The notes beneath the pieces were generated by a model. It was not told where the DNA came from, searched no databases, and saw only the letters and a program-made list of their open reading frames with translations. From Myxococcota bacterium (GTDB lineage Bacteria; Myxococcota_A; Polyangia; JAAYKL01), in the NCBI GenBank assembly GCA_028278265.1, contig JANQET010000041.1, forward strand, positions 18,702-82,701: a stretch of 64,000 nt of DNA, in the 5' to 3' direction. Made by a program: the position numbers and the translations under genes. This document shows positions 243-23,774 of this stretch, piece after piece. Each line of letters starts with the position of its first letter. Position 1 is the first letter of the stretch.

Positions 243-3017
243 GTGAACCAAACAGAGCAGACAACCCGGCGATCGAGCGTTCCCCCGGTCCGGGGCGGCA
301 CCGTGGGGCCGTTTCGCTCGCTGATGGGGCGCCTGCTGGTCGCCTTCTTGGTGCTGTGCGCCTTGCCCTTGGGGGCGGTGGGGTTCTACGTGAGCCACCG
401 CTTGAGCGATGTGCGCCGGGCGGCCCATCGGTCGGCGACCACCTATGAACGCCGGGCCCAGTCGATCGCCCGTCGGGTGGCCGAGTTTTTGGGGGAATGC
501 GAAAAAGACCTCGTCGAGTTGGCCGCCCTGCCCCGATCCGCTGAGGCGTACCTGACCTTTGCCGATCAACACCGGCGCGAGATCTGGATTCGCGGGGGCA
601 CCAACGATCAGATGGTAGAGATCCGCCGGTCAATCCCCCTCTATAAGGAGATCAGTTTCATCAATCCCTCCGGCTCGGAACAGATCCTGGTCAGAGGAGA
701 GAATTTGGTGCCGCGCTCCGAACTGCGCGATGTCAGTGATCCGGCGCGGACGACCTATCGGCGGGAGCGGTATTTCGAGCGCGCCATGGCCAACAAGCCG
801 CAACAGATTTACGTGTCCCATCTCCACGGCTTTCACCTGACCAAGTTCGAACAGCTCGGGGTGGATCGGCTGATCGAACGGCTGGTGGACACCGATGAGC
901 GAGCCAAGAAGATCTACCGTTTCATGCTCTATTCGTGGCTCCAACAGGTGAACGCCGTTGAAATCGTTAATCGATACCGGGAAGCGGACAACGGCTATAT
1001 CGTCTATCGGGTACCGGGCAAGGACAGGACGGTGACGATTGAGGATCCCGGTCCCCTTGGAGAGGCGGAGCGGCGGGCCCGGGAGATGGAGCTGCGCCAT
1101 CTGGTCGACGAGTTGGCGCCCGAAGACGTGGTCGAAGGGGAGCGGTTTGACGGGGTGATTCGCTTTGCCATGCCGGTCGTCGACGATCAGGGGAACAAGC
1201 TCGGCGTGGTGAGCCTGGCCCTGGATCACACCCACCTGCAGCAGTTCACCCAACACGTGCGGTCGATGGAGGAGAACGCCGTGGTCTTTGCCGGCTACCG
1301 GGGGGCGAACTACACCTATCTGTTCGATGATGAGGGGTGGATCATCACCCATCCCAAGATGTGGAACATCCGGGGGGTGGATCGGCGGGGCAAACCGGTG
1401 GCCCCTTACACCGCGAAGAGCGATTCGATCGAGCGGCTCACCGGCCGCATCCCGGTCAACCTGATGAAGTTGGACTGGAAGTTGGGCCGCGGATATCACC
1501 GGCTCGTCTACAAGCTCCAACAGGGCCGAACCGATATCGCCTCGGCCTTCAACCTGGGCGGGGTTCCCCGCACCCGCGTGTACAGCCCCATTTTCTATTC
1601 CACCGGCGAGTATGCCAAACACGGGATCTTCGGCGGGGTGATGCTGGGCACCGACTCCCAGTCGTTCATCCAGTTGATGCGTCAGATGAACGTGGATATC
1701 TCGAACCAGATATCCGCGTTGCGCCGGTCCATTTTCTGGCCGCTGCTGGTGGTTTTCTTGTGTGTCGCCGTGTTGTCGATCGTGGTCGCCCGCAATTTGG
1801 TTCGGCCGGTGCGGTTGCTCAGTCAAGCCGCCCGGCGCATCGGTGAGGGGGATTTGGACTCCCCGGTGCCCCCCCATCGGGGGGATGAGATCGGCGTGCT
1901 GGCCGATGCCTTCGGCGAAATGGTGCGAAGCCTCAAGCAGAGCTTCGCCAAGCTCAACCGGCGCAACCAGGAGCTCAAGGAGACCCAGCAAAAGCTGCTG
2001 CGCGCGGAAAAAGAAAAACAGCGCAAGCTCGAGCAGGAGGTGGCCCAGCTGCAACAGGAAATCGCCCGCTCCTCCTTTGCCTCGATGATCGCCCGCAGCC
2101 CGCAGATGAAGCGCATTCAAGAAGAGATCGTACGGGTGGCCTCCTCTTCGGCGACAGTGCTCATTCGCGGGGACAACGGCACCGGCAAGGAGCTGATCGC
2201 CGAATCAATCCATCTCAACAGCGGCCGCCGGGAGCAGAAGTTCGTCCGGGTCAACTGCGCGTCGTTCAACGAGAACCTGTTGGAGAGCGAGCTGTTCGGT
2301 CACGTCAAGGGGGCCTACACCGGCGCCGCGGCAGACCGCAAGGGGTTGTTCGTGCTGGCGGACGGGGGAACCCTGTTGCTGGACGAGATCGGCGATATGA
2401 GCCTCAACATGCAAAAGAAGTTGCTGCGCACCCTGGAGCAGGGGGAAATCACCCCTCTGGGCTCCCACCGGGTCATCAGGGTCGATGTCCGCATCCTGGC
2501 GGCGACCAATCGGGATTTCGAGCAGTTGATGGGCGCCGGGCAGTTCAGGGAGGATCTCTACCACCGATTGAACGTGATCAACATCTACGTCCCACCGTTG
2601 CGGGAGCGCAAAGCCGATATTCTGCCGTTGGCCAAGCGGTTCGTCCGGCAATTCGCCGAAGCCGAGGACCGCCCGGTGATCGGGCTCTCCGCCGAAGCAG
2701 AGCAGTTCCTGCAGAACTACCCCTGGCCGGGAAATGTGCGGGAGCTCAAAAACGCGACCGAACGGGCAGTGGTGCGTACGAGAAACAATATCCTCGAGGT
2801 GGATGATTTTCAGTTGGCCATCGAGCAGCGCAATGCCTCAACGCCGGCCCCGGTCGGCGACCCCTCCTCGGAGATAACCCTCGCCGAAGCGGAAAAAGAG
2901 CACATCCTGCGCGTGCTGGCCCGGTGCGACGGCAACAAAAAATCCGCCGCCCGAATTCTCGACATCGGGTACAACACCCTCTGGCGCAAGCTCAAGAAGT
3001 ACGAAGAATCCAACTGA
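243..3017 (+). CDS. Sigma-54-dependent transcriptional activator (enhancer-binding protein) with N-terminal extracytoplasmic sensor, TM helix, HAMP and coiled coil
   Basis: 924-aa ORF. AAA+ sigma-54 interaction motifs GDNGTGKELIAESIH, GAYTGA, GTLLLDEIGDM and RVIRVDVRILAATNRD, plus a C-terminal Fis-type HTH (NKKSAARILDIGYNTLWRKLKKY). One TM segment (IFWPLLVVFLCVAVLSIVVA) is followed by a HAMP-like region and an EKEKQRKLEQE coiled coil. TGA stop at 3015-3017. The true start may be a downstream Met. Confidence 0.85.
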   Translation: MNQTEQTTRRSSVPPVRGGTVGPFRSLMGRLLVAFLVLCALPLGAVGFYVSHRLSDVRRAAHRSATTYERRAQSIARRVAEFLGECEKDLVELAALPRSAEAYLTFADQHRREIWIRGGTNDQMVEIRRSIPLYKEISFINPSGSEQILVRGENLVPRSELRDVSDPARTTYRRERYFERAMANKPQQIYVSHLHGFHLTKFEQLGVDRLIERLVDTDERAKKIYRFMLYSWLQQVNAVEIVNRYREADNGYIVYRVPGKDRTVTIEDPGPLGEAERRAREMELRHLVDELAPEDVVEGERFDGVIRFAMPVVDDQGNKLGVVSLALDHTHLQQFTQHVRSMEENAVVFAGYRGANYTYLFDDEGWIITHPKMWNIRGVDRRGKPVAPYTAKSDSIERLTGRIPVNLMKLDWKLGRGYHRLVYKLQQGRTDIASAFNLGGVPRTRVYSPIFYSTGEYAKHGIFGGVMLGTDSQSFIQLMRQMNVDISNQISALRRSIFWPLLVVFLCVAVLSIVVARNLVRPVRLLSQAARRIGEGDLDSPVPPHRGDEIGVLADAFGEMVRSLKQSFAKLNRRNQELKETQQKLLRAEKEKQRKLEQEVAQLQQEIARSSFASMIARSPQMKRIQEEIVRVASSSATVLIRGDNGTGKELIAESIHLNSGRREQKFVRVNCASFNENLLESELFGHVKGAYTGAAADRKGLFVLADGGTLLLDEIGDMSLNMQKKLLRTLEQGEITPLGSHRVIRVDVRILAATNRDFEQLMGAGQFREDLYHRLNVINIYVPPLRERKADILPLAKRFVRQFAEAEDRPVIGLSAEAEQFLQNYPWPGNVRELKNATERAVVRTRNNILEVDDFQLAIEQRNASTPAPVGDPSSEITLAEAEKEHILRVLARCDGNKKSAARILDIGYNTLWRKLKKYEESN

Positions 3018-4615: not shown

Positions 4616-5221
4616 TCAATCCGCGTCGACCTGTTTTATCAGGGTCAGGATCTCGTCGATCATCACGTAATCCGATGAAGTGTCCCTGGCGATGACCAGG
4701 CCGTTTTCCATATCAATTACCGCGCTGAAGGGTAGGGCACCGATCGTCCCCGGAGGTTCTTTGCCGGTCCAAAAGCCCCCCTTAAAATGAGGGCTTAAAT
4801 AACCGGCGATCTGGGCCACCGGCGCCGGTAAGTGGTTTTTAGTGTAGACCGCAAAGACAGCGCTGTTGTGTTGGTAGAGCTGGGGCTCGATGGCACCGAC
4901 CTGACTGAACCAGTCGGGACAGGTGCTTCATGTGGAGTCCCCGACGGTCAAAACGATCGATTGCAGGCCCAGACAGTGGATGTCGTCAAGAGTGAACTCG
5001 ACCTCTTCCTGTTCGATTGTGCCGTCCAGGTCGGCGTCCATGAACCCCGACTGATGCCAGTTGGCCACGGGTTTGCCCAAGCCGAGGCCCGTTCCCCAAC
5101 TGAAAGGAGCACAGTTGTCACTATCCGGCTCAGGGATCGATCCGCTATCGGGGGTCTCGGGATGTGATGAATCGCTGTCACATGCGAGGGGCATCGCTGC
5201 CCAACTCGCGATGACGCCCAT
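4616..5221 (-). CDS. Candidate selenoprotein A: secreted EF-hand + thioredoxin-fold (TlpA/Prx-like) protein with in-frame TGA (Sec) in a U-x-x-C motif
   Basis: Two same-frame minus-strand ORFs (4928..5272 and 4616..4819) separated only by TGA at 4928-4930. Read-through translation gives ...IVLTVGDST-U-STCPDWFSQVGAIEPQLYQHNSAVFAVYTKNHLPAPVAQIAGYLSPHFKGGFWTGKEPPGTIGALPFSAVIDMENG... N-terminal signal/lipoprotein-like MGVIASWAAMPLAC. Canonical EF-hand loop DADLDGTIEQEE. Hairpin CCGACUG-GUU-CAGUC(A)GG at 4896-4917 starts 11 nt after the UGA and resembles a bacterial SECIS. Confidence 0.6.
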
Positions 5222-5429
5222 GTAGACTACTGTTGTTGAAAAGCGCACGGTGTACCTCTCTCTTGTCTCCACTACAATAATATCCCAAGACGCATGAATG
5301 CTTCCCCAAAAAGGGGAACCGAGGAGCTGAAATCCTCAAGCGGCTAGCTTCAACAAAAATGGAATTTTGATAAATTAGTTCGCAAACAAAACTTGGCGGG
5401 ATCACTGGAAGAGTTGTGTTTCGGATCAT

Positions 5430-6335
5430 ATGGGTAAGGGGGAGCTGTGGGAAATGAATGTACCTGATCACATTGCGGTCACTGGAGCCTCGAGCGGCGT
5501 GGGACGGGCGTGCTGCCGGATGCTCGCCCAAGAAGGATTTCATGTGCTGGCTTGTGTCCGCAGCGAAACAGATGCGCAGGACGTTAGATCCCTCGATCCC
5601 GATCGAATATCTCCTGTCATGCTGGAGCTGCAGGACCAGGAGACCGTCGAGCGCACTGCACACCTCGCCTCGGAGATCACCGGCGAGGGGGGGCTGACCG
5701 GGTTGGTGAATTGTGCGGGGGTTCTTTTTTGCGGTCCGTTGGAGTACTTCCCACGGGATCAGTGGTTCGCTCAATACGACGTGAACGTGTTCGGGACGTT
5801 GGCGGTGACCCGCGCCCTGTTGCCGCTCATTCGCAAGGCGCACGGGAGGATAGTCAATATCGGCGCGGTGGGCGGAGGCGTGGCATTGCCCTTTTACGGT
5901 GCCATCGCCTCGTCGAAGATGGCGCTCGAGGCCCTGAACGATTGCCTGCGCCGGGAGCTGCACCCCTTTGGGATTCACGTGGCGATCATCGAGCCCGGGG
6001 GTATTGACACCCCGGCCAACGACAAGATGCGCAGCAGCGTCCGAGCGTACCTCGACTCTCTCGATCCGGTGGGAAAAGAGCGCTACGGCCAAGCCATGGA
6101 GGCTTTTTCCAGGTGGGCCGATGAGATGCACAAGCGAAACTTAAAGCCCGAGCAGGTGGCCCGGGCTGTGCTCAAGGCGTTGCGGGCCAGGCGTCCCAAG
6201 ACCCGGTACCGAGTGGGCCTGGATTCCCGCGCGGCCGCGCTCGCCAACCGGCTCCTGCCCGACCGGCTGTTCGACTGGATTGTCCTTCGGGTATCGAGGC
6301 TGCCGGTGCGGTTCGGCGCGTGGAAAGACGGTTAG
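5430..6335 (+). CDS. Short-chain dehydrogenase/reductase (SDR family oxidoreductase)
   Basis: TGASSGVGR Rossmann motif near the N-terminus. Catalytic-region motifs GAIASSKMALEAL (YxxxK-like) and NCAGV are consistent with the classical SDR family. The minus-strand 317-aa ORF 5178..6131 is its shadow. Confidence 0.8.
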   Translation: MGKGELWEMNVPDHIAVTGASSGVGRACCRMLAQEGFHVLACVRSETDAQDVRSLDPDRISPVMLELQDQETVERTAHLASEITGEGGLTGLVNCAGVLFCGPLEYFPRDQWFAQYDVNVFGTLAVTRALLPLIRKAHGRIVNIGAVGGGVALPFYGAIASSKMALEALNDCLRRELHPFGIHVAIIEPGGIDTPANDKMRSSVRAYLDSLDPVGKERYGQAMEAFSRWADEMHKRNLKPEQVARAVLKALRARRPKTRYRVGLDSRAAALANRLLPDRLFDWIVLRVSRLPVRFGAWKDG

Positions 6336-6408: not shown

Positions 6409-9400
6409 TTGCGCCTTCCATTTGAGCTCTGTTCAAGAGCATTCATACTTATGGGGATGTTCCCCCACAGAAAAAAGGGTTCAAAAATTTGCGTCGCGCT
6501 GGCGATGGTGATCGCATTTTGCGGGTCTCAGGCCGGCGCCCAGTCTACAAATGACCTGCGCTTCGAACACATATCGACCAATAAGGGTCTCTCTCAGGTC
6601 TCTGTACTGTCCATGTTGCAGGACCGGTTGGGGTTCATCTGGTTCGCCACCCAGGACGGTCTGAATAAGTACGACGGCTACAATTTCACGACCTTTCGCA
6701 ACGATGAGAACGACGAAAGCAGCATCGGAGACAATGACGTATGGACGCTGGTTCAAGGTGAAAATGACGAAATCTGGATCGGCTTACACTATGCCGGGCT
6801 CAACCGGTATGACCCGCGCACCGGGACGTTCGAGCGGTTTCGACACCATCCGGACGATCCCAACAGTCTGAGCAGCGATAATATTCGATTTCTCTGGTAT
6901 GACACGGACGGCACCCTCTGGATCGGCACGAACGACGCCGGTCTCAATCACTTCAATCCCAAAACCAAAGTGGTCACCCGAGTTGGATTTCATGCCTCAC
7001 AAGAGGATGGTCTCGATCGCAAGCGGGTGCTCGCCATTTTGAGGGATTCTCGCCAAAATCTTTGGATCGGCACCTGTGGGGGTGGCCTCAGTCGCTACGT
7101 TCCCGACTCCCGAACCTTTGTTCATTCGGTGCATCGCGAAGACGATGAAAACAGCCTAAGTGGGAACTGTGTCAGCGCGTTGCTCGAGGACTCAAGGGGT
7201 AATTTGTGGGTCGGCACCAGCGGAAGCGGTCTGAATTTATTTAATCCCAAAACGGGTAAATTCAAGCGCTTTCGCCACCGGCCCAATCAGCCCCACAGCC
7301 TGGGCCACGACTATATCACGATCATGTTGCGGGATAGAGAGGATAACCTGTGGATCGGTACCCGCGGCGGAATCAGCAAGCACAACCCGGCGACGCAAAC
7401 CTTTGTTAACTACGAGCACCAAACCTCAAACCCCACAAGTCTGAGTCACAACGCGGTCTACTCCATCCTCGAAGACAACACCGGCACCCTCTGGTTCGGC
7501 ACACTAGGGGGCGGCGCGAACAAATTTGATGTGTTTACAAAGGGGATCAAAACCTATCGCCACCAAGCGGACAATCCCAACTCGCCGAGCCACAATGTCG
7601 TCCGATCGCTCCTAGTGGATGCCGATGATCATGTGTGGATCAGCACTTATAAAGGGGTAGACAAATACGATCCCCAAAATGGTGCGTTTGCGCACGTTGA
7701 TCTAAAACCCGATGCCAAAGAAAAAGGAAAAAGGGAATATATCTTCTCGATGTCCCAAAAACCACCGTCCAAGAAGGCGTCAATCGAAGGGCCAGCCGAC
7801 GATCTGTGGTTGGGCGTCTTCAAAGGGGGGATCAGGCGATACAACCCGGCTTCGGGAACAATCGCCTCTTTCAAGGCCGAGCCCGGCAACAGCCAGAGCC
7901 TCATCAGCAACGACATCGAAACCATTCTGACGGACAGTAAGGGCAACGTCTGGATCGGAACCTTGGCCTCCGGGTTGAGCAAGCTCGATCCCCAAACGGG
8001 TGCCTATCATCACTTTCGGCACAATCCCGACGATCCGAGCAGCATTAGCAGCGATGCGATAAAGGCGATACTCGAAGATCATCAGGGTGAGATATGGATT
8101 GGCACCAAATTCGGGTTGAACAAATTGGTAGCGGATTCTGGGATTTTTGAAAGATACCGCTATAACCCGTCGAGCCCCGTCCGGCTCAGTCACGATTCCA
8201 TCAACACGATATACCAAGACAGTCGCGAAAACTTGTGGATGGGAACAGATGGTGGACTGGCAAAGATTGATTCGCGCACCGGAAAACAATCGATTTACGC
8301 CAAAAAACACGGGTTTCCAAATTTGCTCACCACGTGCATTGTGGAAGACGATTTGCGAAATCTGTGGGTCGGAACCAACGACGGCTTGGTGCGATTCGAC
8401 CCGGAATCTGAGAAAACCACCGTTTTTGACTCACGTGACGGACTTCAAGGGAACTCGTTCATGAGCCATTCCTGCGGTCGAACCGGGGACGGCATGCTCT
8501 ACTTCGGGGGTGAAAACGGTCTAAGCGTCATTGACCCCAAGATGATCAGAAAAAATGAATACCCACCGCCGATTGTGTTTACCGATTTCAGACTCTTCAA
8601 TAAATCCGTGGCTGTTGCAAAACCGGGTGAGTCTTCAGCGGATTTTCGATTGGCGCGACATATCAGCTATGCCAAAGCGCTCACGCTCGACTACACGGAT
8701 TATATATTCTCGATAGAGTTCTCAGCACTCAACTACCGGCAGCCTGAAAAAAACAGGTACATGTACCAGTTGGAGGGATTGGACAAACAGTGGATCGAAA
8801 CGACCGCCGCGAACCGCAGAGCAACCTACACGGACTTGCCGCACGGCAGCTACTTGCTGCGGGTTAGGGCCTCGAATGACGACGGTGTTTGGAATGAACG
8901 GGCCAGCACGCTAAAACTGACCATCTTGCCGCCACCGTGGCGATCCTGGTGGGCTTATGCGCTCTATCTCGTTTCAGCGATAGCGCTTATTTTTTGGTTT
9001 ATTCAATACCAGCGCAACAAGGTCAGACAAAAGCAGCGAGAATTGGACAAGGAGATCCAGATCTCGCAGCGCCTGCGCCAGGTAGACAAGCTCAAAGACG
9101 AGTTTCTGGCCAATACCTCCCACGAACTCCGCACTCCCTTAAACGGTATAATTGGCATCGTAGAGTCGCTCATCGACCGCCACAAACAGCAATCGGCCGA
9201 TGCGACCGAGTCCAATTTAAAGCTCATCTTCTCCAGCGGCAAACGGTTGGCCAGCCTGGTAGATGACATTTTGGATTTCTCCAAAATGAAGAATCAATCG
9301 CTGGCGCTGGATCTCGCCGCAGTTGAGCTCCGCCCTCTGGTAGACGTCGTCTTGGCCACCTCCCGTACGCTCATCGGAAACAAACCGTTGGAACTGGTAA

Positions 9401-11100
9401 ACGAAATCGACGCCACCCTCCCCCTCGTCTTGGCCGATGAGAACAGACTGCAGCAGATTTTGTTCAATCTGGTAGGCAACGCGATAAAATTCACCGAATC
9501 GGGGACAGTTTCGGTTTCCGCCAAAGATAGCGGTGGCGAAGTGGAAATCGGTGTGTCTGATACCGGCATTGGGATACCGGATGACAAACTCGAGCGAATT
9601 TTTGAGTCTTTTGAGCAGGTAGACGGGGGCAGCACCCGGGCCTATGGTGGCACCGGACTCGGGTTGACGGTTACGCGACAACTCGTCGAGCTTCACGGTG
9701 GGAAGGTATCGGTTGAGTCAACTGTCGATAAAGGATCAGTTTTTAGCTTCACGTTGAAGACCGCGGGAGATGCAAAACCGATCGAGATGGGAGTTACCCC
9801 GTCTGCCCACCCCATTAGCACTATTCTAAGGACCAGCTCAAACGTTCCCAGCGCATCAGATGTGGCCATCTCTCCCAAAGAAGAGCCGGCGCCAGAGGGC
9901 GACTTCAACATTCTGATCGTCGATGATGATCCGATAAATCTAAAGGTTCTCGAAAATCACTTGTCTCTGCAGAACTACACGATTACCCAGGCGACAAACG
10001 GCAACGAGGCGCTTGCTATCTTAACATCTGGCGTGCATATCGACTTAATTCTGTTGGATATTATGATGCCCCGAATGTCGGGGTATGAAGTGGTGGAGAA
10101 GCTTCGAGGGAGTTTCGCCGCTCACGAGTTACCGGTCATTTTTCTAACCGCCAAGAATCAAGTCGCCGACTTGGTGGCCGGTTTTGCGGCGGGTGGAAAT
10201 GACTATTTACCCAAACCAATCGCCAAAGCCGAGCTGTTGTCGCGTGTGAAAACGCACCTGGAGCTGTTGGATATCAATCGCAATTTAGAGACCAAAGTGA
10301 GAGATCGGACAGCAGAGGTCGTCGAACAGAAGAAACAGCTAGAGCTCGCCTATCGCGAAGTGAATCAGACCAAGGATGCCTTGTGGGGCGAAATGCAGTT
10401 GGCCAAGAAGATTCAGGTCGTATTGGTACCAGATTGCCCCCAAATTCCGGGGTATTTCATCGCGACCCATATGGAAACCGCAGATTCAGTGGGGGGTGAC
10501 TACTACGACGTGGTGCAGGCCAACGGGAAAAATTGGCTGATTATCGGCGATGTGTCGGGGCACGGGGTGACCGCCGGTCTCGTGATGATGATGGCGCAGA
10601 CAGCGCTGCACCACGCACTCCACGCTCTGCCCACCGCAACACCGGATGAAATCTTGACCTCCGTGAACAGGGTTGTATTTGAGAATATTCAGAAACTGGG
10701 TGAGTCGAAATACATGACCCTCACCCTGCTCTCGATCGACCCGGACGGCACCATTTTTTACACCGGGCTTCATCAAGACATCTATATTTATCGCCAATCC
10801 CTGGGACAAATTGAAACCGCGGAGACCAAGGGGATATGGCTGGGGGTTGTCGACGATATAGACAAGTTAAACAGCGTGGATCAGCTGAAGCTCCAGTCCG
10901 AAGACGCCTTGATTCTCTATACAGATGGCATTGTCGAAGCGCGTGATCCGCACGGACGGTACACCAACAACCGACTCAAATCTCTAGTTGAGAAAATCGG
11001 CCACGAGCCAGTTGATTCGATTCGCGATCAAATCCTGCGCTCCCTTGAGCATTTCACACGGGACGATGATGTAACCCTTGTGGTGGTGAAGAAAGCTTAG
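6409..11100 (+). CDS. Hybrid sensor histidine kinase: signal peptide, two-component regulator propeller repeats, Y_Y_Y domain, TM, HisKA/HATPase, receiver, C-terminal PP2C/SpoIIE phosphatase
   Basis: 1563-aa ORF; probable start at 6451 (MGMFPHRKKGSKICVALAMVIAFCGSQAGAQS). Many propeller-like repeats (xxDxxGxLWIGTxxGLxxYD). H-box ANTSHELRTPLNGIIG. ATPase motifs (NLVGNAIKFT, DTGIGI, GGTGLGL). Receiver domain (ILIVDDDPINLKV...LLDIMMPRMSGYEV...LPKPI). C-terminal SpoIIE/PP2C motifs (ADSVGGDYYDV, IGDVSGHGVTAG, LYTDGIVEA). Confidence 0.85.
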   Translation: MRLPFELCSRAFILMGMFPHRKKGSKICVALAMVIAFCGSQAGAQSTNDLRFEHISTNKGLSQVSVLSMLQDRLGFIWFATQDGLNKYDGYNFTTFRNDENDESSIGDNDVWTLVQGENDEIWIGLHYAGLNRYDPRTGTFERFRHHPDDPNSLSSDNIRFLWYDTDGTLWIGTNDAGLNHFNPKTKVVTRVGFHASQEDGLDRKRVLAILRDSRQNLWIGTCGGGLSRYVPDSRTFVHSVHREDDENSLSGNCVSALLEDSRGNLWVGTSGSGLNLFNPKTGKFKRFRHRPNQPHSLGHDYITIMLRDREDNLWIGTRGGISKHNPATQTFVNYEHQTSNPTSLSHNAVYSILEDNTGTLWFGTLGGGANKFDVFTKGIKTYRHQADNPNSPSHNVVRSLLVDADDHVWISTYKGVDKYDPQNGAFAHVDLKPDAKEKGKREYIFSMSQKPPSKKASIEGPADDLWLGVFKGGIRRYNPASGTIASFKAEPGNSQSLISNDIETILTDSKGNVWIGTLASGLSKLDPQTGAYHHFRHNPDDPSSISSDAIKAILEDHQGEIWIGTKFGLNKLVADSGIFERYRYNPSSPVRLSHDSINTIYQDSRENLWMGTDGGLAKIDSRTGKQSIYAKKHGFPNLLTTCIVEDDLRNLWVGTNDGLVRFDPESEKTTVFDSRDGLQGNSFMSHSCGRTGDGMLYFGGENGLSVIDPKMIRKNEYPPPIVFTDFRLFNKSVAVAKPGESSADFRLARHISYAKALTLDYTDYIFSIEFSALNYRQPEKNRYMYQLEGLDKQWIETTAANRRATYTDLPHGSYLLRVRASNDDGVWNERASTLKLTILPPPWRSWWAYALYLVSAIALIFWFIQYQRNKVRQKQRELDKEIQISQRLRQVDKLKDEFLANTSHELRTPLNGIIGIVESLIDRHKQQSADATESNLKLIFSSGKRLASLVDDILDFSKMKNQSLALDLAAVELRPLVDVVLATSRTLIGNKPLELVNEIDATLPLVLADENRLQQILFNLVGNAIKFTESGTVSVSAKDSGGEVEIGVSDTGIGIPDDKLERIFESFEQVDGGSTRAYGGTGLGLTVTRQLVELHGGKVSVESTVDKGSVFSFTLKTAGDAKPIEMGVTPSAHPISTILRTSSNVPSASDVAISPKEEPAPEGDFNILIVDDDPINLKVLENHLSLQNYTITQATNGNEALAILTSGVHIDLILLDIMMPRMSGYEVVEKLRGSFAAHELPVIFLTAKNQVADLVAGFAAGGNDYLPKPIAKAELLSRVKTHLELLDINRNLETKVRDRTAEVVEQKKQLELAYREVNQTKDALWGEMQLAKKIQVVLVPDCPQIPGYFIATHMETADSVGGDYYDVVQANGKNWLIIGDVSGHGVTAGLVMMMAQTALHHALHALPTATPDEILTSVNRVVFENIQKLGESKYMTLTLLSIDPDGTIFYTGLHQDIYIYRQSLGQIETAETKGIWLGVVDDIDKLNSVDQLKLQSEDALILYTDGIVEARDPHGRYTNNRLKSLVEKIGHEPVDSIRDQILRSLEHFTRDDDVTLVVVKKA

Positions 11101-18207: not shown

Positions 18208-18873
18208 CTAGTTCCGGCCCTGGTTGGCACGCTTGGCGGCGGCGAGGATTTCTTCGTTGGTGAGGCTGTGAATTTGATCGTCGGCGACGAGGACTTTTCC
18301 ATTCGACATATCGATCACCGCGCGGCCGAGGAGGCCGCTGGAAAGGGGCAGTCGGGATGAATCGGCCCAGAAGCCGCCATCGAAGTATCGGCTCAAATGC
18401 TCGGCCGCGTACGCCATCGGTTCGGAAGCATGGGGATGGGTGTACACGGCGAACACGGCGCTGTTGTGTGTGCTCAGTTGCGCTTCGATCCGACCAACCT
18501 GGCCGAACCGCGTGGCGCAGAGGGCTCCTCACGTTTCATCTCCTTGGACGAAAACGATCGACGACAAGCCGGAGCAGTGAATGTCTTGCAAGCTGAAGCG
18601 AACCTCGTTCCACTCCACCTGACCATCTCGATCGGAGTCAATGAAACCGATTTGCGTCCAATTGGCCACTGGCTGGCCGATCTCGTATTTGGTTCCCCAG
18701 GCGATTTGGGAACACTCGGAATCGGTGTCATTTTCCCAGTTTTCAGGGTCGTCAGAATCGTTGTCCACCTCCGGTGGGTAGCCCCGGACCTCATCATCGC
18801 AGGCGACTTGGAGCCCGACCCAACCGACCGTCCCATACAGGATCAGCAGGGGGAGTGTTACCGGCCGACTCAT
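18208..18873 (-). CDS. Candidate selenoprotein B (paralog of A/C): secreted EF-hand + thioredoxin-fold protein with in-frame TGA
   Basis: ORFs 18529..18873 and 18208..18456 are in the same frame, interrupted only by TGA at 18529-18531: ...IVFVQGDET-U-GALCATRFGQVGRIEAQLSTHNSAVFAVYTHPHAS...YFDGGFWADSS...GRAVIDMSNGKV... Signal MSRPVTLPLLILYGTVGWVGLQVAC. EF-hand loop DSDRDGQVEWNE. Weaker hairpin GGCC-AGGUU-GGUC about 25 nt after the UGA (plus strand 18487-18507). The start ATG overlaps the stop of gene C (ATGA). Confidence 0.5.
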
Positions 18874-19520
18874 CGATCGCTCCCCTGGCCGGCCCGTTCG
18901 CTGCGCTTCACCGCGGCCAAGACCTCGCTGATCATCACATAATCCGTCGACGTGTCCCGGACGACCACTTCACCGGTGCTCAGGTCAATCACCGCGGTGA
19001 AGGGCAGCGCAAAAATGGTTCCCAACCGGGGTCTCTCACCGGTCCAGAACCCTCCCTTGAAATAGGGACTGATATAGCCGGCGATCTCGCGGACCGGCGC
19101 CTCCAGACCGTTCTTGGTGTAGATCACAAAGACAGCGGCATTGTGTTGGTGGAGCTGCGGTTCGATCTCGCCGACCTGACTGAACCAGTCGGGACAGCCG
19201 CTTCACGTCGATCCCCCAATCAGCAACACGATGGACCGCAATCCCAGACAGTGAATGTCGTCGAGGGAGAAAGAGACCTCTTCCCGCTCGATTTCACCGT
19301 TCAGGTCGGCGTCCATGTACCCGGTTTGTCGCCAGTTGGCCACGGGCTTGCCGGGGGTGAGCCCCCTGCCCCAATCAAAGGGAGCGCAATGATCGGTATC
19401 GGTGTCGACCTCCGGGCCGGGGTCTACGGGAATGGGGCGGGCCTCGTCGTCGCAGCCGAGCTGGACGATGCCCCCACCGGTTGTGATGCAAATAGTGAGC
19501 AAGGTGGTTAAGCGATGCAC
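18870..19520 (-). CDS. Candidate selenoprotein C (paralog of A/B): secreted EF-hand + thioredoxin-fold protein with in-frame TGA in U-x-x-C motif
   Basis: ORFs 19203..19634 and 18870..19127 are in the same frame with TGA at 19203-19205: ...IVLLIGGST-U-SGCPDWFSQVGEIEPQLHQHNAAVFVIYTKNGLEAPVREIAGYISPYFKGGFWTGERPRLGTIFALPFTAVIDLSTG... Likely GTG start at 19520 (MHRLTTLLTICITTGGGIVQLGC). EF-hand DADLNGEIEREE. SECIS-like hairpin identical to copy A at plus 19171-19192. Confidence 0.6.
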
Positions 19521-19683
19521 TGTACGGTCCTCTTGCCGTTCTTGTCGGCGGTCGTGATCCCCTATTTTATTAGTTACGCGAGACCCCTCTTTGCTTCCCA
19601 AAAAAAGGATGACAAGGGTAGGGGGTCTTGACAAAAAAATGGAATTTCGATAAATTGGTTCGTATACGAAGGACTGTTATCCC

Positions 19684-20103
19684 ATGAAGCTGCCCCCGAA
19701 CTTTCCGGATTGTACAATTTTCTTACTGGCCAAGGCGTATCAACGATCCCACGCTCGGTTCAAGAATCGGCTCAAACCGTACGCCCTGACCAACCTCCAG
19801 CACCTAGTGTTGGAAGGGCTGTGGTTTAGAGAAGGCCAAACTGCTGCCGAGTTGGGCAAGCTGTTGATTCTCGACAAGGCGACCCTCTCCGGGGTGCTCG
19901 ATCGCCTGGACGACGCGGGTTGGATTGTCAAGGTGCACGATGAGACGGACAAGCGAACGGTTCGCATCTATCCCTCTGGCAAGGCCGACGAGCAGAAGGA
20001 CGCGCTGATCAAGGAGCGGGAGGACGCCAACACCGAGCTGCTCGCCGGATTTTCGTCAGAAGAACAACTGTTGTTGAAGCGGTTCCTCAAGGATCTTTTC
20101 TAG
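19684..20103 (+). CDS. MarR-family transcriptional regulator
   Basis: 139 aa. A winged-helix region (LTNLQHLVLEGLWFREGQTAAELGKLLILDKATLSGVLDRLDDAGWIV...DKRTVRIYPSGKA) is typical of MarR/OhrR. A sigma-70-like promoter (TTGACA-16 nt-ATAAAT) and the 12-bp palindrome TTCGTATACGAA lie immediately upstream. Confidence 0.8.
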   Translation: MKLPPNFPDCTIFLLAKAYQRSHARFKNRLKPYALTNLQHLVLEGLWFREGQTAAELGKLLILDKATLSGVLDRLDDAGWIVKVHDETDKRTVRIYPSGKADEQKDALIKEREDANTELLAGFSSEEQLLLKRFLKDLF

Positions 20104-20199
20104 GCATCATGTGCTGCTGTGCGGAGAGTCTCGGGGTAAGCTGTTTGAATATTGTTTGTATACTAACTTTATCACTTCGAGTGTCCTAGGGAGGCATCA

Positions 20200-21900
20200 A
20201 TGCTATTGAATCCGAAAACCAACTCCTATGATCACCTGGATGCCCGCTCGCAGGAGATCATGAAGAAAACGATCGATTTCTTCGAGGCCAAGGGCAAAGC
20301 CAAGTTGAAGCGGGATCACTACGACCGGGTGTGGTACGACGACTTTCTCGATTTTGTTAAAGAGAACCGGATCTTTGCCACCCTGCTCACCCCGACCGCT
20401 TGCGCCGAGGGGGATCGGGACAAACGCTGGGACACGTCTCGAATTTGCGAGTTCAACGAAATCCTCGGGTTCTACGGGCTGGCGTATTGGTACACCTGGC
20501 AGGTGACCATTTTGGGCTTGGGGCCTATTTGGATGAGCCCGAACGAGGCGGTGAAGAAGCGCACCGCACAACTGCTCGACGAGGGGGGCATTTTTGCTTT
20601 CGGCCTCTCGGAGAAAACGCACGGCGCCGACCTCTACTCGACGGAGATGGCGCTCACCCCGCTGGGGAACGGCCGGTATGCCGCCGACGGGGGCAAGTAC
20701 TACATCGGCAATGCCAACAAAGCCGCGCTGGTCTCCACCTTTGGCAAGAATTCGGACAATGACGAATTCGTGTTCTTTGCCGTTGATCCGAGTCACGAGG
20801 ACTACGACCTGGTGCAAAACGTGGTGGATTGGCAGAGCTATGTCGCCGAATTCGCTCTGCGCGCCTATCCGGTGGCCGAGGCGGATATCCTCTCCACCGG
20901 TCGTGACGCCTGGGACACCGCCCTCAACACGGTCAACGTGGGCAAGTTCAATCTGGGCTGGGCCTCAATCGGTATCTGCACCCACGCGTTTTACGAGGCG
21001 ATTGAGCACGCTGCCGGGCGCAATCTCTACGGCAAGTTCGTCACCGACTTCCCCCATATCCAACAGCTGTTCACCGATGCCTACGCGCGCTTGACGGCGA
21101 TGAAACTGTTCGCCTCGCGAGCAATAGACTACATGCGCACCGCCTCCCCGGCGGATCGGCGCTATCTCTTGTACAACTCGCTGGTTAAAATGAAGGTGAC
21201 CACCCAAGGGGAAGAGGTGATCAATCTGCTGTGGGATGTGATCGCCGCCCGGGGGTTCGAGAAGGACGTCTACTTTGAAAACGCCACACAGGATATTCGG
21301 GCGCTGCCCAAGCTGGAGGGCACCGTGCACGTGAACATGGCGTTGGTCGTCAAGTTCATGGCCAATTACTTCTTCAAGCCCGAACCGTATCCCGAAATAG
21401 CCAAACAGGAGGCACCGGTGGACGACGAATTTCTCTTTAACCAGGGACCGACCAAGGGCCTGGGGGATATTCGGTTCCACGACTATCGGCCGGCCTATGA
21501 CGCGGTGGATCTGCCCAATGTCAATATTTTCAAAGAGCAGGTCGCCCTGTTTAAAAAACTGTTGATGAAGGCCCCCCCGCAACAACAGCAAACCCGGGAT
21601 ATCGATTTTCTGCTCACCGTGGGCGAGCTGTTTACCCTGGTGGTGTATGGTCAGCTGATCCTCGAAAAAACCGAGATGGAGCAGGTCGATCCGCTCCTGG
21701 TGGATCAGATGTTCGACTTCATGGTGAGGGATTTTTCCGGTCACGCGCTCGCGCTTCACAGCAAACCCAGCAGCACGCCCGAGCAGATGGAGCTCGGTCT
21801 GCAGCTGATCAGAAAACCCCACACCGATACCAAGCGGTTCTTTGCCGTGTGGAAGGAGCGAGTACTGCCATTGAAGGACGCGTATACGATGAACGAGTAG
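20200..21900 (+). CDS. Acyl-CoA dehydrogenase family protein (long form)
   Basis: 566 aa. GGAGG upstream. Internal region GIFAFGLSEKTHGADLYSTEM...GKYYIGNANKAALVSTFGK. Size and layout are consistent with long acyl-CoA dehydrogenases. The assignment is from overall pattern, not a diagnostic catalytic residue. Confidence 0.55.
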   Translation: MLLNPKTNSYDHLDARSQEIMKKTIDFFEAKGKAKLKRDHYDRVWYDDFLDFVKENRIFATLLTPTACAEGDRDKRWDTSRICEFNEILGFYGLAYWYTWQVTILGLGPIWMSPNEAVKKRTAQLLDEGGIFAFGLSEKTHGADLYSTEMALTPLGNGRYAADGGKYYIGNANKAALVSTFGKNSDNDEFVFFAVDPSHEDYDLVQNVVDWQSYVAEFALRAYPVAEADILSTGRDAWDTALNTVNVGKFNLGWASIGICTHAFYEAIEHAAGRNLYGKFVTDFPHIQQLFTDAYARLTAMKLFASRAIDYMRTASPADRRYLLYNSLVKMKVTTQGEEVINLLWDVIAARGFEKDVYFENATQDIRALPKLEGTVHVNMALVVKFMANYFFKPEPYPEIAKQEAPVDDEFLFNQGPTKGLGDIRFHDYRPAYDAVDLPNVNIFKEQVALFKKLLMKAPPQQQQTRDIDFLLTVGELFTLVVYGQLILEKTEMEQVDPLLVDQMFDFMVRDFSGHALALHSKPSSTPEQMELGLQLIRKPHTDTKRFFAVWKERVLPLKDAYTMNE

Positions 21901-21983
21901 GGTCTGTCCGGTATTTGTCATCCCCGCGCAGGCGGGGATCCAGATCGGGTCGCGAATCCCGATTTTTTACTCAGCGAGGGAAC

Positions 21984-23774
21984 ATGTACACATACGAAAA
22001 ACCCGATAATCTGGTCGAATGGTTTCACCTGTCAGTTGAGAAACACGCGGAGAATCCACTGTTCGGCACCAAGAATGCGGCGGGATCCTACGAGTGGATC
22101 AATTATCAGCAGGTTGGAACACGGGTCGATAATCTCAGGGGTGGGTTGGCCGCGCTGACCATCGGGAAGGGGGATGCGGTCGGCATCATCGCCAACAACC
22201 GCACCGAGTGGGCCATTGCGGAGTTCGCCACCTTGGGGCTGGGGGCGCGGTTCGTGCCGATGTACGAAAAAGAGCTCCCCCGCATCTGGAAACACATCAT
22301 CAACGATTCGGGGCTCAAGGCGCTGCTCGTCGCCAATCGGGCGATCTACGATCGGATCATCGACCTGAAGGATGAAATGCCCGGCCTCGAGCACCTGTTT
22401 GTGATCGACGATCACGGGGAGAACTCGATGGCCGCTCTCGAACGGTTGGGGGAAACCCATCCGGTCAATCCGTACATTCCCAGCCCGGACGACGTGGCGG
22501 TGTTGATCTACACCTCGGGCACGACCGGCAAACCCAAGGGGGTGCTGCTGACCCACGGCAACTTCACCAGCAACGCCCGCAGTGGCTATCGTTTTTTTGC
22601 CGATCAGTTGAAACCGAGCAGTCGTAGTATTTCCATCTTGCCTTGGGCCCATGCGTATGCCCAAACCGCCGAGCTGTACAACTTCATTCAGTTCGGCGGA
22701 TCGATCGCTTTTGTCGAGTCGGTGGCCACGTTGGCCGATGATATGCAAAAGGCCCAACCTACCTTCCTCATTGCCGTGCCGATGGTGTTCAATCGCATCT
22801 ACGCCAAAGTGCATTCGACCATCGACGAGAAGGCGGGTCTAGGGCGCAAGCTGTTTACGATGGGCATCGATTCCGCTGAAAAGAAACGCAGCAGCATCCC
22901 TCCGGGACCGGGAATGTGGACTGAGCTCAAGTACAAAACCGCCGACACCCTCGTCTTCAAGAAGATCCGCACCCTGTTCGGCGGGCGACTCGAGGCGGCG
23001 ATCACCGCCAGTGCGACGATGAATCCCAAAATCGCCAACTTCTTCTGGGACATCGGGATTCCGATCTTCGACTGCTACGGACTGACCGAGACCTCACCGG
23101 CGATCACGATGAGCTGTTTCGATGGGTACAAGACTCGGAGTGTGGGGCGTTGCCTGGAGAACGTCATCGTGAAAATCGATTCGTCAGTGGTCGAGCCCGA
23201 AGCCAAGGACGGGGAGGTGGTGGTCTACGGCCCCAACGTGATGAAGGGGTACCACAACCGTCCCCAGGCCACCGAAGAGGTGATGACCGAAGACGGCGGC
23301 TTTCGCACCGGGGATCGGGGGTACATGGATGAGGATGGATACCTCTACATCACCGGCCGGATCAAGGAACAGTACAAGCTGGAGAACGGCAAGTATGTGT
23401 TTCCCGCCGGCATCGAAGATGAAATCCGCTTGCTGCCCTGGGTCGAAAACACCATGCTCTACGGTGAAGGAAGGGCGTACAACGTCTGCCTCATCATCCC
23501 CGATTTCGAGGTCCTGGGCCGCTGGGCCGAGGAGCGCAATCTCTCCACCGAGCCAGATGATTTGGTGAAAGAACAGGTTGTGGAGGACATGATCCTCGCC
23601 GCGATCATCGAAACACTGACCGGCAAATTCGGCCGCTACGAGATCCCCAAGAAGATCGCCCTGATCGAGGAGATCTTCTCCCTGGAGAACGGCCTGTTGA
23701 CCCAAACGATGAAGCTCAAACGGCGCAAGGTGGTCGAGCGCTATCGGGCCGAAATCGACAAGCTGTATCAGTAA
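21984..23774 (+). CDS. Long-chain fatty-acid--CoA ligase / acyl-CoA synthetase (AMP-binding)
   Basis: AMP-binding signature YTSGTTGKPKGV. CYGLTETSP, FRTGDRGYMDEDGYLYITGRIKE and the final lysine (LKRRK) match the adenylate-forming enzyme family. Start taken at MYTYEKPDN (21984). Confidence 0.85.
   Translation: MYTYEKPDNLVEWFHLSVEKHAENPLFGTKNAAGSYEWINYQQVGTRVDNLRGGLAALTIGKGDAVGIIANNRTEWAIAEFATLGLGARFVPMYEKELPRIWKHIINDSGLKALLVANRAIYDRIIDLKDEMPGLEHLFVIDDHGENSMAALERLGETHPVNPYIPSPDDVAVLIYTSGTTGKPKGVLLTHGNFTSNARSGYRFFADQLKPSSRSISILPWAHAYAQTAELYNFIQFGGSIAFVESVATLADDMQKAQPTFLIAVPMVFNRIYAKVHSTIDEKAGLGRKLFTMGIDSAEKKRSSIPPGPGMWTELKYKTADTLVFKKIRTLFGGRLEAAITASATMNPKIANFFWDIGIPIFDCYGLTETSPAITMSCFDGYKTRSVGRCLENVIVKIDSSVVEPEAKDGEVVVYGPNVMKGYHNRPQATEEVMTEDGGFRTGDRGYMDEDGYLYITGRIKEQYKLENGKYVFPAGIEDEIRLLPWVENTMLYGEGRAYNVCLIIPDFEVLGRWAEERNLSTEPDDLVKEQVVEDMILAAIIETLTGKFGRYEIPKKIALIEEIFSLENGLLTQTMKLKRRKVVERYRAEIDKLYQ

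What the first reader, a model, noticed from the sequence alone, without database searches (positions are those of the whole stretch)
5300..5400. Conserved ~100-bp divergent-promoter block duplicated with the selenoprotein genes; MarR palindrome operator at copy C
5361-5400 (AAAAATGGAATTTTGATAAATTAGTTCGCAAAC) and 19629-19672 (AAAAATGGAATTTCGATAAATTGGTTCGTATACGAAGG) are near-identical. The upstream CTTCCCCAAAAAGGGGAACC / TTGCTTCCCAAAAAAAGGATGAC segments also match. Each block sits between a minus-strand selenoprotein candidate (A, C) and a divergent plus-strand gene (SDR at 5430; marR at 19684).

At copy C the block contains a sigma-70-like promoter (TTGACA 19628-19633, 16 nt, ATAAAT) and a perfect 12-bp palindrome TTCGTATACGAA (19659-19670) over the marR +1 region. 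This is a classic MarR/OhrR-type autoregulatory operator that would also control the divergent Sec-protein gene. That suggests thiol/peroxide-stress regulation of these Sec oxidoreductases. Copy A has lost the palindrome (GTTCGCAAAC).
Basis: seen in the sequence. Interest (0 to 1): 0.55.

Follow-up and report, generated by a model that had tools for sequence, protein, structure and literature searches.

The report
Duplicated promoter region carrying a MarR operator
A ~150-bp upstream region was copied together with a selenoprotein gene, and one end of it is the promoter and binding site of a neighbouring MarR repressor that really controls a fatty-acid operon, so this is ordinary gene regulation with one unexplained conserved stretch.

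Summary
Two short blocks occur exactly twice in 64 kb, each upstream of the paralogous minus-strand UGA-containing genes A and C. The quoted strings start at 5355 and 19635, about 6 nt from the stated positions.

At copy C, TTGACA-17-TAAATT plus the palindrome is the marR promoter and operator. The same layout, with the operator core 23-25 nt before the ATG, recurs upstream of marR orthologues in 8 foreign loci with unrelated upstream neighbours. A second operator (20154-20167) lies in front of the next gene, an acyl-CoA dehydrogenase followed by a fatty-acid-CoA ligase. So the operator belongs to a conserved marR-acyl-CoA module, not to the selenoprotein genes.

The MarR fails the OhrR tests, although it has an invariant Cys10.

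Copy A carries a decayed operator (10 bits against 14-22 for orthologue sites). This shows that A was copied from the C/marR locus.

Box 2 is 26/28 identical, while 4-fold sites of A and C are only 27/59 identical and this spacer varies freely among marR orthologues. Something other than MarR therefore constrains it, probably a protein-binding site for the selenoprotein genes. That part is inferred.

Ordinary biology overall; interest is low to moderate.

The parts
4616..5248 (-). Gene A: lipoprotein-like thioredoxin-type selenoprotein candidate (GTG start, in-frame TGA at 4928-4930, motif GDST-U-STC)
   Evidence: Translation. It is 61% identical to gene C. Cys homologues carry CxxC at the same place.
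5299..5316 (.). Box 1, copy A (TGCTTCCCCAAAAAGGGG). It lies 51-68 nt upstream of the gene A start, about 16 nt upstream of a minus-strand -10-like TATTAT (5282-5277).
5349..5377 (+). Box 2, copy A: copy of the marR core promoter with a degraded -35 (TTCAAC/TCAACA), the conserved spacer AAAAATGGAATTTTGA, and a -10 TAAATT preceded by TG (extended -10)
5378..5391 (.). Decayed relic of the MarR operator (GTTCGCAAACAAAA)
   Evidence: Matrix score 10.0 bits, rank 3 of 63,987 window positions. Orthologue sites score 14-22 bits and the next background hit scores 7.1.
5454..6335 (+). Short-chain dehydrogenase/reductase gene downstream of copy A (the ORF opens at 5430; the likely start is 5454)
   Evidence: Pfam adh_short, 6e-38; sequence.
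18208..18873 (-). Gene B: third paralogue (TGA at 18529-18531). Its ATG overlaps the stop of gene C (ATGA), so it has no upstream block of its own.
18870..19520 (-). Gene C: selenoprotein candidate (GTG start, TGA at 19203-19205, motif GGST-U-SGC)
19592..19609 (.). Box 1, copy C (TGCTTCCCAAAAAAAGGA), 72-89 nt upstream of the gene C start
19628..19656 (+). marR promoter: -35 TTGACA (19628-19633), 17-nt spacer containing the box 2 core (19635-19650), -10 TAAATT (19651-19656)
   Evidence: Promoter scan 10/12. The same -35/-10 layout is present in 8 orthologous loci.
19658..19671 (.). MarR operator O1 (GTTCGTATACGAAG; core palindrome 19659-19670). It overlaps the start of the marR leader and its Shine-Dalgarno GAAGGA.
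   Evidence: 21.3 of 22.9 bits with a matrix built only from foreign loci. Its position relative to the ATG is conserved.
19684..20103 (+). marR (139 aa, invariant Cys10)
   Evidence: Pfam MarR, 3e-12. 1558 homologues were found, with the listed best 65-79% identical. Cys10 is present in 120 of 120.
20154..20167 (.). MarR operator O2 (GTTTGTATACTAAC), 33 nt upstream of the acyl-CoA dehydrogenase start
   Evidence: 21.7 bits, rank 1 in the window. The equivalent site is present in all foreign loci examined.
20200..23774 (+). Target operon: acyl-CoA dehydrogenase (20200-21900) and a fatty-acid-CoA ligase-like gene (ORF 21849-23774)
   Evidence: Pfam and NCBIfam. marR-ACAD synteny holds in the 7 foreign loci where downstream sequence is held.

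Best explanation
The block is the upstream control region of selenoprotein gene C, which lies back to back with the promoter of marR. It was copied along with the gene when paralogue A arose.

Shown: in copy C the right-hand ~45 bp are the sigma-70 promoter of marR (TTGACA-17-TAAATT) and a 14-bp dyad operator. This operator belongs to a conserved marR / acyl-CoA dehydrogenase / acyl-CoA ligase module. One operator sits just downstream of the -10 hexamer, where the marR leader should begin, and a second sits in front of the dehydrogenase. MarR therefore most likely represses itself and the acyl-CoA operon until an unknown ligand or modification releases it. An acyl-CoA or fatty-acid-type signal, or chemistry at the invariant Cys10, are the candidates.

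Shown: copy A keeps only a decayed operator. The copying therefore ran from the C/marR locus to the A locus, and MarR control is not what the two copies share.

Inferred: two islands are kept far better than neutral sites. These are box 2 (26/28, the marR promoter spacer plus -10) and box 1 (16/18 in the ungapped MAFFT alignment). They probably serve a MarR-independent cis-regulatory role common to both copies. The most likely role is as protein-binding sites of the promoter region of the selenoprotein genes. Box 1 lies at roughly -30 to -50 of a -10-like hexamer, and box 2 lies about 90 nt upstream. At each locus box 2 also doubles as the core promoter of the plus-strand gene (marR or the SDR gene).
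For: Only two copies of each box exist in 64 kb, with 0 expected. The local alignment score is 48 against 17 +/- 2.5 for shuffles.

Genes A and C are sister paralogues (61% identity, against 44-48% to B).

The marR upstream architecture is conserved in L002, L004, L006, L007, L009, L011, L022 and L023, which have unrelated upstream genes.

A matrix from 12 foreign sites ranks the window sites 20154 (21.7 bits) and 19658 (21.3 bits) first and second. Copy A (10.0 bits) is third and the next hit scores 7.1. In the held-out loci L022 and L023 the two best hits fall at -25/-24 of the marR ATG and in the spacer before the next gene.

Downstream genes are an ACAD and an AMP-binding ligase. L023 also has FadB- and FadA-like genes next door.

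Neutral yardstick: 27/59 four-fold sites are identical between A and C. From that, P(>=26/28 identical) is about 1e-5 to 2e-7 per window, or about 2e-3 to 2e-5 after allowing for ~120 window positions (with my arithmetic).

The marR spacer is not conserved among orthologues.

No long identical tracts that would suggest recent gene conversion were found. The longest exact matches are 27 nt (just 3' of the UGA on the mRNA), 16, 16 and 13 nt.
Against: No transcription start sites are known. No convincing sigma-70, sigma-54 or ECF-type promoter for genes A or C could be identified; only -10-like hexamers TATTAT and TAAAAT were found, and their offset from box 1 differs by about 6 nt between the copies.

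Boxes 1 and 2 have no third copy anywhere. There is none in the window, in JGI metagenomes or upstream of Sec-gene relatives. Their function therefore rests on a single paralogous comparison.

Box 1 alone is only marginally significant against a homologous-but-neutral null (P 2e-4 to 2.5e-3 per window).

The box 1 to box 2 distance differs by ~12 nt between copies.

All statements about MarR binding are sequence inference.
Confidence: 0.6

Rival explanations
1. One reading: the palindrome is an OhrR-type operator. One thiol/peroxide-sensing MarR uses it to control both marR and the divergent selenoprotein operon C-B, tying these Sec oxidoreductases to oxidative stress.
For: The operator lies in the shared 163-nt intergenic region. 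The MarR subfamily has an invariant N-terminal Cys10. Its best solved relatives include OhrR and a staphylococcal MarR, at E 1e-9 to 1e-10. The neighbouring genes encode UxxC redox-type proteins.
Against: The operator core is 139-150 nt upstream of the gene C start. It travels with marR in 8 loci that lack any Sec gene. Sec-gene relatives lack marR. Copy A keeps boxes 1 and 2 but not the operator. OhrR scores 33 bits against a 200-bit cut-off. The OhrR Cys aligns with Ile12 and its Tyr partners with Phe26 and Asn37. The second operator fronts an acyl-CoA dehydrogenase, and there is no ohr/OsmC gene.
Confidence: 0.12
2. Box 2 is conserved only because it is a working plus-strand promoter in both places. 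The duplication supplied the SDR gene with a captured copy of the marR promoter, perhaps still weakly MarR-responsive through the relic operator. The Sec genes are bystanders.
For: The best plus-strand promoter candidate upstream of the SDR gene is exactly this block: TCAACA-15-TAAATT with a TG extended -10. The relic operator is the third-best matrix hit in the window. An SDR would fit a lipid or acyl-CoA regulon functionally.
Against: The best-kept part is the spacer (15/16), which promoters do not normally constrain and which differs completely among marR orthologues. In contrast, the -35 and the right operator arm have decayed in copy A. Box 1 is unexplained by this model. The standard promoter scan does not call copy A a promoter.
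Confidence: 0.18
3. The boxes have no function of their own. They are leftovers of the duplication kept by chance, by a locally low mutation rate, or by an old short gene-conversion tract.
For: There are only two sequences to compare. Box 1 is marginal on its own. The boxes are A/T-rich and low in complexity.
Against: Box 2 at 26/28 is very unlikely given 46-55% identity at silent sites. The flanks are too diverged to support conversion, and no long identical tracts exist. Two separate islands would require two separate events.
Confidence: 0.08
4. The boxes act at the RNA level, as a structured 5' leader of the selenoprotein mRNAs (riboswitch, thermometer or Shine-Dalgarno-sequestering hairpin).
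For: The CCUUUUU of box 1 is complementary to the AAGAGG Shine-Dalgarno region in both copies (by eye). Box 1 of copy A forms a 6-bp hairpin.
Against: Folding energies of both leaders are no better than shuffles (z from -0.5 to +0.5). The hairpin is not kept in copy C. There is no Rfam match in the window. No promoter is known upstream of box 2 on the minus strand.
Confidence: 0.04

Closest known systems
Autoregulatory MarR-family operators (E. coli marO/MarR; SlyA, HucR and relatives)
   Same: A winged-helix MarR protein is encoded next to a short dyad-symmetric site that overlaps the -10/+1 region of its own promoter. A second site fronts the regulated operon. This matches the general description of the family (my own knowledge), and the Pfam MarR hit is above cut-off.
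   Different: It is a distinct, uncharacterised subfamily. It scores only 31-33 bits on the NCBIfam MarR, SlyA and OhrR equivalog models, against cut-offs of 120-240. The operator consensus GTTyGyAyrCnAAs was derived here. The targets are acyl-CoA genes, not efflux or virulence genes.
OhrR / 1-Cys redox-sensing MarR regulators (B. subtilis and X. campestris OhrR, PDB 1Z91/2PFB; the staphylococcal MarR of PDB 4HBL/5HLG-I, which I recall is the redox sensor AbfR)
   Same: These are among the nearest solved relatives by sequence. A single invariant Cys lies near the start of helix 1.
   Different: Cys10 lies two residues before the OhrR sensing Cys in the HMMER alignment. The Tyr partners are replaced by Phe26 and Asn37. 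No ohr gene is adjacent. The score is far below the OhrR cut-off.
Acyl-CoA- or acyl-ACP-responsive MarR regulators (CouR, FerC/FerR, BadR, FabT); listed from my own knowledge
   Same: A MarR repressor is encoded beside CoA-ligase and acyl-CoA-metabolising genes, which suggests a thioester or fatty-acid effector.
   Different: No sequence-level membership was shown here and no ligand is known. These families did not appear among the NCBIfam hits.
Promoter regions duplicated together with paralogous genes (paralogous footprinting)
   Same: Conserved islands sit in otherwise diverged upstream regions of two paralogues within one genome.
   Different: Here the copied segment includes part of the neighbouring gene's promoter and operator. 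This leaves a datable operator relic at the new site.

Membership tests
MarR family regulator | Winged-helix MarR domain scoring above the Pfam gathering threshold | tested here: met
   PF01047 scores 46.6 bits against a cut-off of 24.6.
MarR autoregulatory operator | Dyad-symmetric site overlapping the regulator's own promoter, conserved with the regulator gene | tested here: met
   The perfect 12-bp palindrome at 19659-19670 begins 2 nt after the -10. The same site and spacing are present in 8 foreign loci. The matrix ranks it and O2 first and second in the window, and the held-out loci confirm it.
MarR autoregulatory operator | Physical binding of the cognate protein and ligand-dependent release | not testable with these tools
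   Requires EMSA or footprinting.
OhrR subfamily | Score above the curated equivalog cut-off | tested here: not met
   NF052638 OhrR scores 33.3 bits against a cut-off of 200.
OhrR subfamily | Sensing Cys (Bs C15 / Xc C22) with two Tyr partners (residue numbers from my own knowledge) | tested here: not met
   Xc OhrR C22 aligns with Ile12. The Tyr positions align with Phe26 (117/120) and Asn37 (119/120). The invariant Cys10 is offset by 2 residues.
OhrR subfamily | Adjacent ohr (OsmC/Ohr peroxidase) target gene | tested here: not met
   The neighbours are an ACAD, an AMP-binding ligase and the Sec-candidate genes. There is no OsmC hit.
Sigma-70 promoter | TTGACA / 16-18 nt / TATAAT-like hexamers | tested here: met
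   Copy C: TTGACA-17-TAAATT, 10/12. The TTGACA hexamer is conserved in the orthologues.
Sigma-70 promoter (copy A) | Same hexamers and spacing | tested here: inconclusive
   TCAACA-15-TAAATT with TG before the -10. It is not called by the standard scan.
Dispersed intergenic repeat / mobile element | Many copies at unrelated intergenic sites | tested here: not met
   There are two copies in 64 kb, both upstream of the paralogues. Six exact metagenome hits all lie in unrelated contigs of 26-42% G+C with no flank similarity. The whole genome is not available.
Bacterial selenoprotein genes (context of the block) | In-frame UGA aligned with Cys in homologues, with conserved coding sequence after it | tested here: met
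   A, B, C, L005 and P0121-P0124 all stop or read through at GD(S/E)T-UGA. P0136, P0137 and P0151 have CxxC there.
Bacterial selenoprotein genes (context of the block) | SECIS hairpin just 3' of the UGA, and Sec machinery in the genome | tested here: inconclusive
   The hairpin GACUG-GUU-CAGUC (A, C) or GAGCUG-GUU-CAGCUC (L005) starts 12-13 nt after the UGA. Only gene A folds better than shuffles (z -2.9). No tRNA-Sec or sel genes are present in the window.

The most novel reading that the evidence does not exclude
Boxes 1 and 2 are two binding sites for one dedicated transcription factor that controls the UxxC selenolipoprotein genes, for instance in response to selenium supply or envelope redox state. 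They share a loose GCTTC-N2-3-A5-7-(T)GGA pattern, and the A-run length matches within each copy. Box 2 overlaps the marR core promoter, so the same factor would also link expression of the acyl-CoA regulator to the selenoprotein genes. This would be a new cis-regulatory motif specific to selenoprotein genes.
Probability: 0.15. Interest if true: 0.5.

Novelty: new member of a known kind. Interest (0 to 1): 0.3.

Why it matters
This corrects a plausible but wrong regulatory link. The palindrome is the operator of a widespread, highly conserved and uncharacterised MarR subfamily with an invariant Cys10. Named relatives are mostly Desulfobacterota. The subfamily is tied to an acyl-CoA dehydrogenase / CoA-ligase operon, and its consensus operator is now defined well enough to predict regulons in other genomes.

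It also gives a clean example of a gene duplication carrying along a neighbour's promoter and leaving a decaying operator. That relic shows the direction of the duplication.

The remaining puzzle is a promoter spacer conserved well beyond neutral expectation. It points to an unknown regulator of a rare, unannotated selenoprotein family and is directly testable.

Tried and rejected
- **Known RNA families:** an Rfam scan of the whole window found nothing.
- **RNA leader:** folds of both 5' regions are no better than shuffles (one search failed on length).
- **Alternative promoter types, checked by eye on the minus strand:** sigma-54 (GG-N10-GC) fits copy A weakly but not copy C. ECF-type GGAAC...CGT has the wrong spacing. 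A sigma-32-like CTTGA...CCCCTTTT is seen in copy A only, with a long spacer. None is conserved in both copies.
- **Further copies of the boxes:** pattern searches with 1-3 mismatches and for the AATTT-N4-AAATT dyad found nothing beyond the two loci.
- **Metagenome scan for box 2:** six exact matches, all chance hits in AT-rich contigs.
- **Orthologous Sec loci, to footprint the boxes:** the first protein search found nothing. The genome scan found one relative. The profile search found five truncated relatives. In all of them the gene follows another gene on the same strand, so there is no comparable upstream region.
- **Gene downstream of B:** the 221-aa gene is not related to the neighbours of Sec relatives.
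- **Literature searches:** no paper on this MarR subfamily or this selenoprotein family was found.
- **Organism identity:** not established. The only name lookup returned no names.

Full report
**1. The observation**

- The 22-mer AAAAATGGAATTTYGATAAATT occurs at 5355-5376 and 19635-19656 on the plus strand. It occurs nowhere else in the window even with three mismatches, and none is expected by chance.
- The second segment, TGCTTCCCMAAAAARGG, occurs at 5299-5315 and 19592-19608 only.
- The best local alignment of the two intergenic regions is 34/40 identical. It scores 48, against 17.3 +/- 2.5 for dinucleotide shuffles.
- The two long quoted strings start about 6 nt earlier or later than stated.
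- The distance between the two boxes differs by about 12 nt between the copies.

**2. The genes around the blocks**

On the minus strand:
- Gene A is 4616-5248 and gene C is 18870-19520. Both have GTG starts behind Shine-Dalgarno-like purine runs.
- Gene B is 18208-18873, and its ATG overlaps the stop of C.
- All three are paralogues with a signal peptide and lipobox Cys, an acidic linker, and an in-frame TGA inside G-D/G-S/E-T-U-x-x(-x)-C.
- A and C are 61% identical. Each is 44-48% identical to B.

On the plus strand:
- The block at A faces a short-chain dehydrogenase gene (likely start 5454).
- The block at C faces marR (19684-20103). marR is followed by a 566-aa acyl-CoA dehydrogenase (20200-21900) and a fatty-acid-CoA ligase-like gene.

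**3. The palindrome belongs to marR**

The MarR protein has 1558 homologues. The best 120 are 65-79% identical, and those that carry names are Desulfobacterota.

I read the DNA of eight foreign loci: L002, L004, L006, L007, L009, L011, L022 and L023.
- In every one, marR is preceded by (c/g)TTGACA, a 14-18 nt spacer, a TAnnnn hexamer, and then GTTCGyAyrCrrAG. The 12-mer core starts 23-25 nt before the ATG, and the right arm runs into the Shine-Dalgarno.
- In the seven loci where downstream sequence is held, marR is followed by the 564-568-aa acyl-CoA dehydrogenase, sometimes after an FMN reductase and a DUF4442 gene. In three of them (L006, L022 and the window's own L001) the window-type AMP-binding ligase or its start is visible downstream. 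In L023, FadB- and FadA-like genes lie next door. In L002 the contig ends 216 nt after marR.
- A second related site, GTTnGyAyrCnAAs, lies after marR in all eight. Where the next gene is visible, it sits in front of that gene.
- The upstream neighbours differ in all of them: an unknown 131-aa gene, DUF2259, a lytic transglycosylase, a phage-type baseplate gene, a TetR operon, HGD-D, a GGDEF regulator and a thiolase. None is a relative of genes A, B or C.

A 14-column matrix built only from 12 sites of six foreign loci was scanned over the window.
- 20154-20167 scores 21.7 bits and 19658-19671 scores 21.3 bits, out of a maximum of 22.9. These are the two best of 63,987 positions.
- In the two loci not used for the matrix, the two best hits fall exactly at the expected places.

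This is strong comparative evidence that the palindrome is the operator of this MarR, and that its regulon is marR itself plus the acyl-CoA operon.

**4. It is not an OhrR**

- The protein reaches only 33 bits on the NCBIfam OhrR model (cut-off 200). It scores similarly low on the SlyA and MarR equivalogs.
- The nearest solved structures are a staphylococcal MarR (4HBL, 5HLG-I) and Xanthomonas OhrR, at E 1e-9 to 1e-10.
- In the HMMER alignment the sensing Cys22 of OhrR pairs with Ile12. Its two tyrosine partners pair with Phe26 and Asn37, both nearly invariant in this subfamily.
- No ohr gene is nearby.
- Cys10 is invariant in 120 of 120 homologues, so thiol chemistry cannot be dismissed. The gene context points to an acyl-CoA or fatty-acid signal instead.

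**5. Copy A is a copy of the C/marR region**

- The homology in copy A runs through the marR -35 region (TTCAACA for TTGACA), the spacer, the -10 and the left operator arm (GTTCG). It then fades: GTTCGCAAACAAAA against GTTCGTATACGAAG.
- The relic scores 10.0 bits. That is third in the window and above the 7.1-bit background, but far below the 14-22 bits of the 16 orthologue sites.
- The promoter-operator layout is ancestral to marR across many genomes. The A locus must therefore derive from a C-like locus that already lay next to marR.
- The duplicated segment is about 4616-5391 against 18870-19671.

**6. What is still constrained**

- Between A and C only 27 of 59 four-fold degenerate sites are identical, and third positions are 55% identical. 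That is roughly one substitution per silent site.
- Against that yardstick, 26/28 identities in box 2 (5355-5382) has a probability of about 1e-5 to 2e-7 per window. It stays below 2e-3 after correcting for position (the arithmetic is mine).
- Box 1 is 16/18 in the ungapped MAFFT alignment and is only marginal on its own.
- The best-kept part of box 2 is the 16-nt spacer of the marR promoter (15/16). The same spacer is entirely different in every marR orthologue. Meanwhile the -35 and the right operator arm have decayed in copy A.
- No long identical tracts suggest recent gene conversion. The longest exact matches are 27 nt directly 3' of the UGA on the mRNA, then 16, 16 and 13 nt.

The constraint is therefore neither MarR binding nor simple promoter function. 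The feature common to both loci is the selenoprotein gene on the other strand.

**7. Where the selenoprotein promoters might be**

- A relaxed scan finds -10-like hexamers on the minus strand: TATTAT at 5282-5277 and TAAAAT at 19569-19564. Box 1 would then lie at about -46 to -29 in A and -52 to -35 in C, and box 2 about 90 nt upstream.
- No conserved -35, sigma-54 or ECF pattern is present.
- On the plus strand of copy A, the block gives TCAACA-15-TAAATT with a TG extended -10. This is the best candidate promoter for the SDR gene.
- Box 1 also loosely resembles the -35 region of box 2. The A-run is five in both repeats of copy A and seven in both repeats of copy C. This would suit two sites for one protein, but the resemblance is weak.
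- RNA-level explanations are not supported.

**8. No outside help for boxes 1 and 2**

- The metagenome scan for box 2 returned six exact hits. All are in unrelated contigs of 26-42% G+C with no flanking similarity.
- Relatives of the selenoprotein genes are rare. There is one locus among 185,579 species genomes, five truncated proteins in the clustered database, and 35 representatives among 1.84 billion.
- In the five relative loci whose DNA I read (L005, L018-L021), the gene follows another gene on the same strand with almost no spacer. There is therefore no comparable upstream region.

**9. Verdict**

- The promoter and MarR-operator reading of copy C is right and now has comparative support.
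- The proposed regulatory link to the selenoprotein genes and to peroxide stress is not supported.
- The operator serves a conserved marR / acyl-CoA dehydrogenase module that happens to lie next to gene C in this genome.
- The duplication that produced gene A carried part of that promoter along, and the operator there has decayed.
- The unexplained residue is the strong conservation of the spacer and of box 1. I attribute it, with moderate confidence, to an unidentified DNA-binding factor acting on the selenoprotein genes.

This is a new member of a known kind of system, with low to moderate interest. The selenoprotein family itself is the more unusual object in this region.

Noticed in passing
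window 4616-5248 (-), 18208-18873 (-), 18870-19520 (-): Three paralogous lipoprotein-like genes carry an in-frame TGA in GD(S/E)T-U-x-x(-x)-C. Database relatives are all cut off at ...GDST (P0121-P0124). Full-length Cys homologues (P0136, P0137, P0151) have CxxC at that place. There is no Pfam or NCBIfam match, and only 35 representatives exist among 1.84 billion proteins. This looks like a rare, unannotated thioredoxin-type selenoprotein family.
   Followed up: partly
window 4896-4922 and 19171-19197: A 27-nt stretch is identical between genes A and C and begins 6 nt 3' of the UGA on the mRNA. It contains a hairpin GACUG-GUU-CAGUC. The relative in L005 has GAGCUG-GUU-CAGCUC at the same place. 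This is probably the SECIS element. Only gene A folds clearly better than shuffles.
   Followed up: partly
window 18870-18873: The stop of gene C and the start of gene B overlap (ATGA), so C and B are probably co-transcribed and translationally coupled.
   Followed up: no
window 19684-20103 (MarR residue 10): Cys10 in the motif P-D-C-T-[IV]-F-L-L is invariant in 120 of 120 homologues of this MarR subfamily. Members remain 65-79% identical across many Desulfobacterota-labelled assemblies, which is unusually conserved for a MarR.
   Followed up: partly
window 5296-5322 / 5343-5369 and 19589-19615 / 19623-19650: Box 1 loosely repeats the -35 region of box 2 (GCTTC-N2-3-A run-(T)GGA). The A-run is 5 nt in both repeats of copy A and 7 nt in both repeats of copy C. 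The repeat spacing is 47 nt in A and 35 nt in C.
   Followed up: partly
L018 2758-6669 and L005 65-3465: In distant relatives the selenoprotein gene is the last in a same-strand run. The run comprises a Pyr_redox_2-Rhodanese-TusA fusion, a DsrE-like gene and a 235-aa lipoprotein-like gene, which hints at a role in sulfur or persulfide handling.
   Followed up: no
L004 1940-1990: The marR promoter of a second organism from the same sample (MarR 78% identical) also contains TCGATAAATT in its spacer, but 8 nt further from the operator than in the window. It may be a coincidence.
   Followed up: no
window 12000-18200: G+C drops to 0.48-0.53, against 0.55-0.62 in the flanks. Five of the larger ORFs here (12219-13814, 13947-14543, 14660-15463, 15573-17054, 17455-18120) have no Pfam match. 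This may be acquired DNA lying between the two selenoprotein loci.
   Followed up: no
window 243-3017 (+) and 6409-11100 (+): The region holds a Cache-HAMP sigma-54 activator and a 1563-aa hybrid histidine kinase with Reg_prop/Y_Y_Y propeller, receiver and SpoIIE phosphatase domains. No sigma-54 promoter was seen upstream of gene A or gene C.
   Followed up: partly
window 20149-20172: The second operator sits in a longer imperfect palindrome, ATATTGTTTGTATAC/GTATACTAACTTTAT (80% complementary). It overlaps a TTGAAT hexamer at 20145-20150 that could be the -35 of the dehydrogenase promoter.
   Followed up: no
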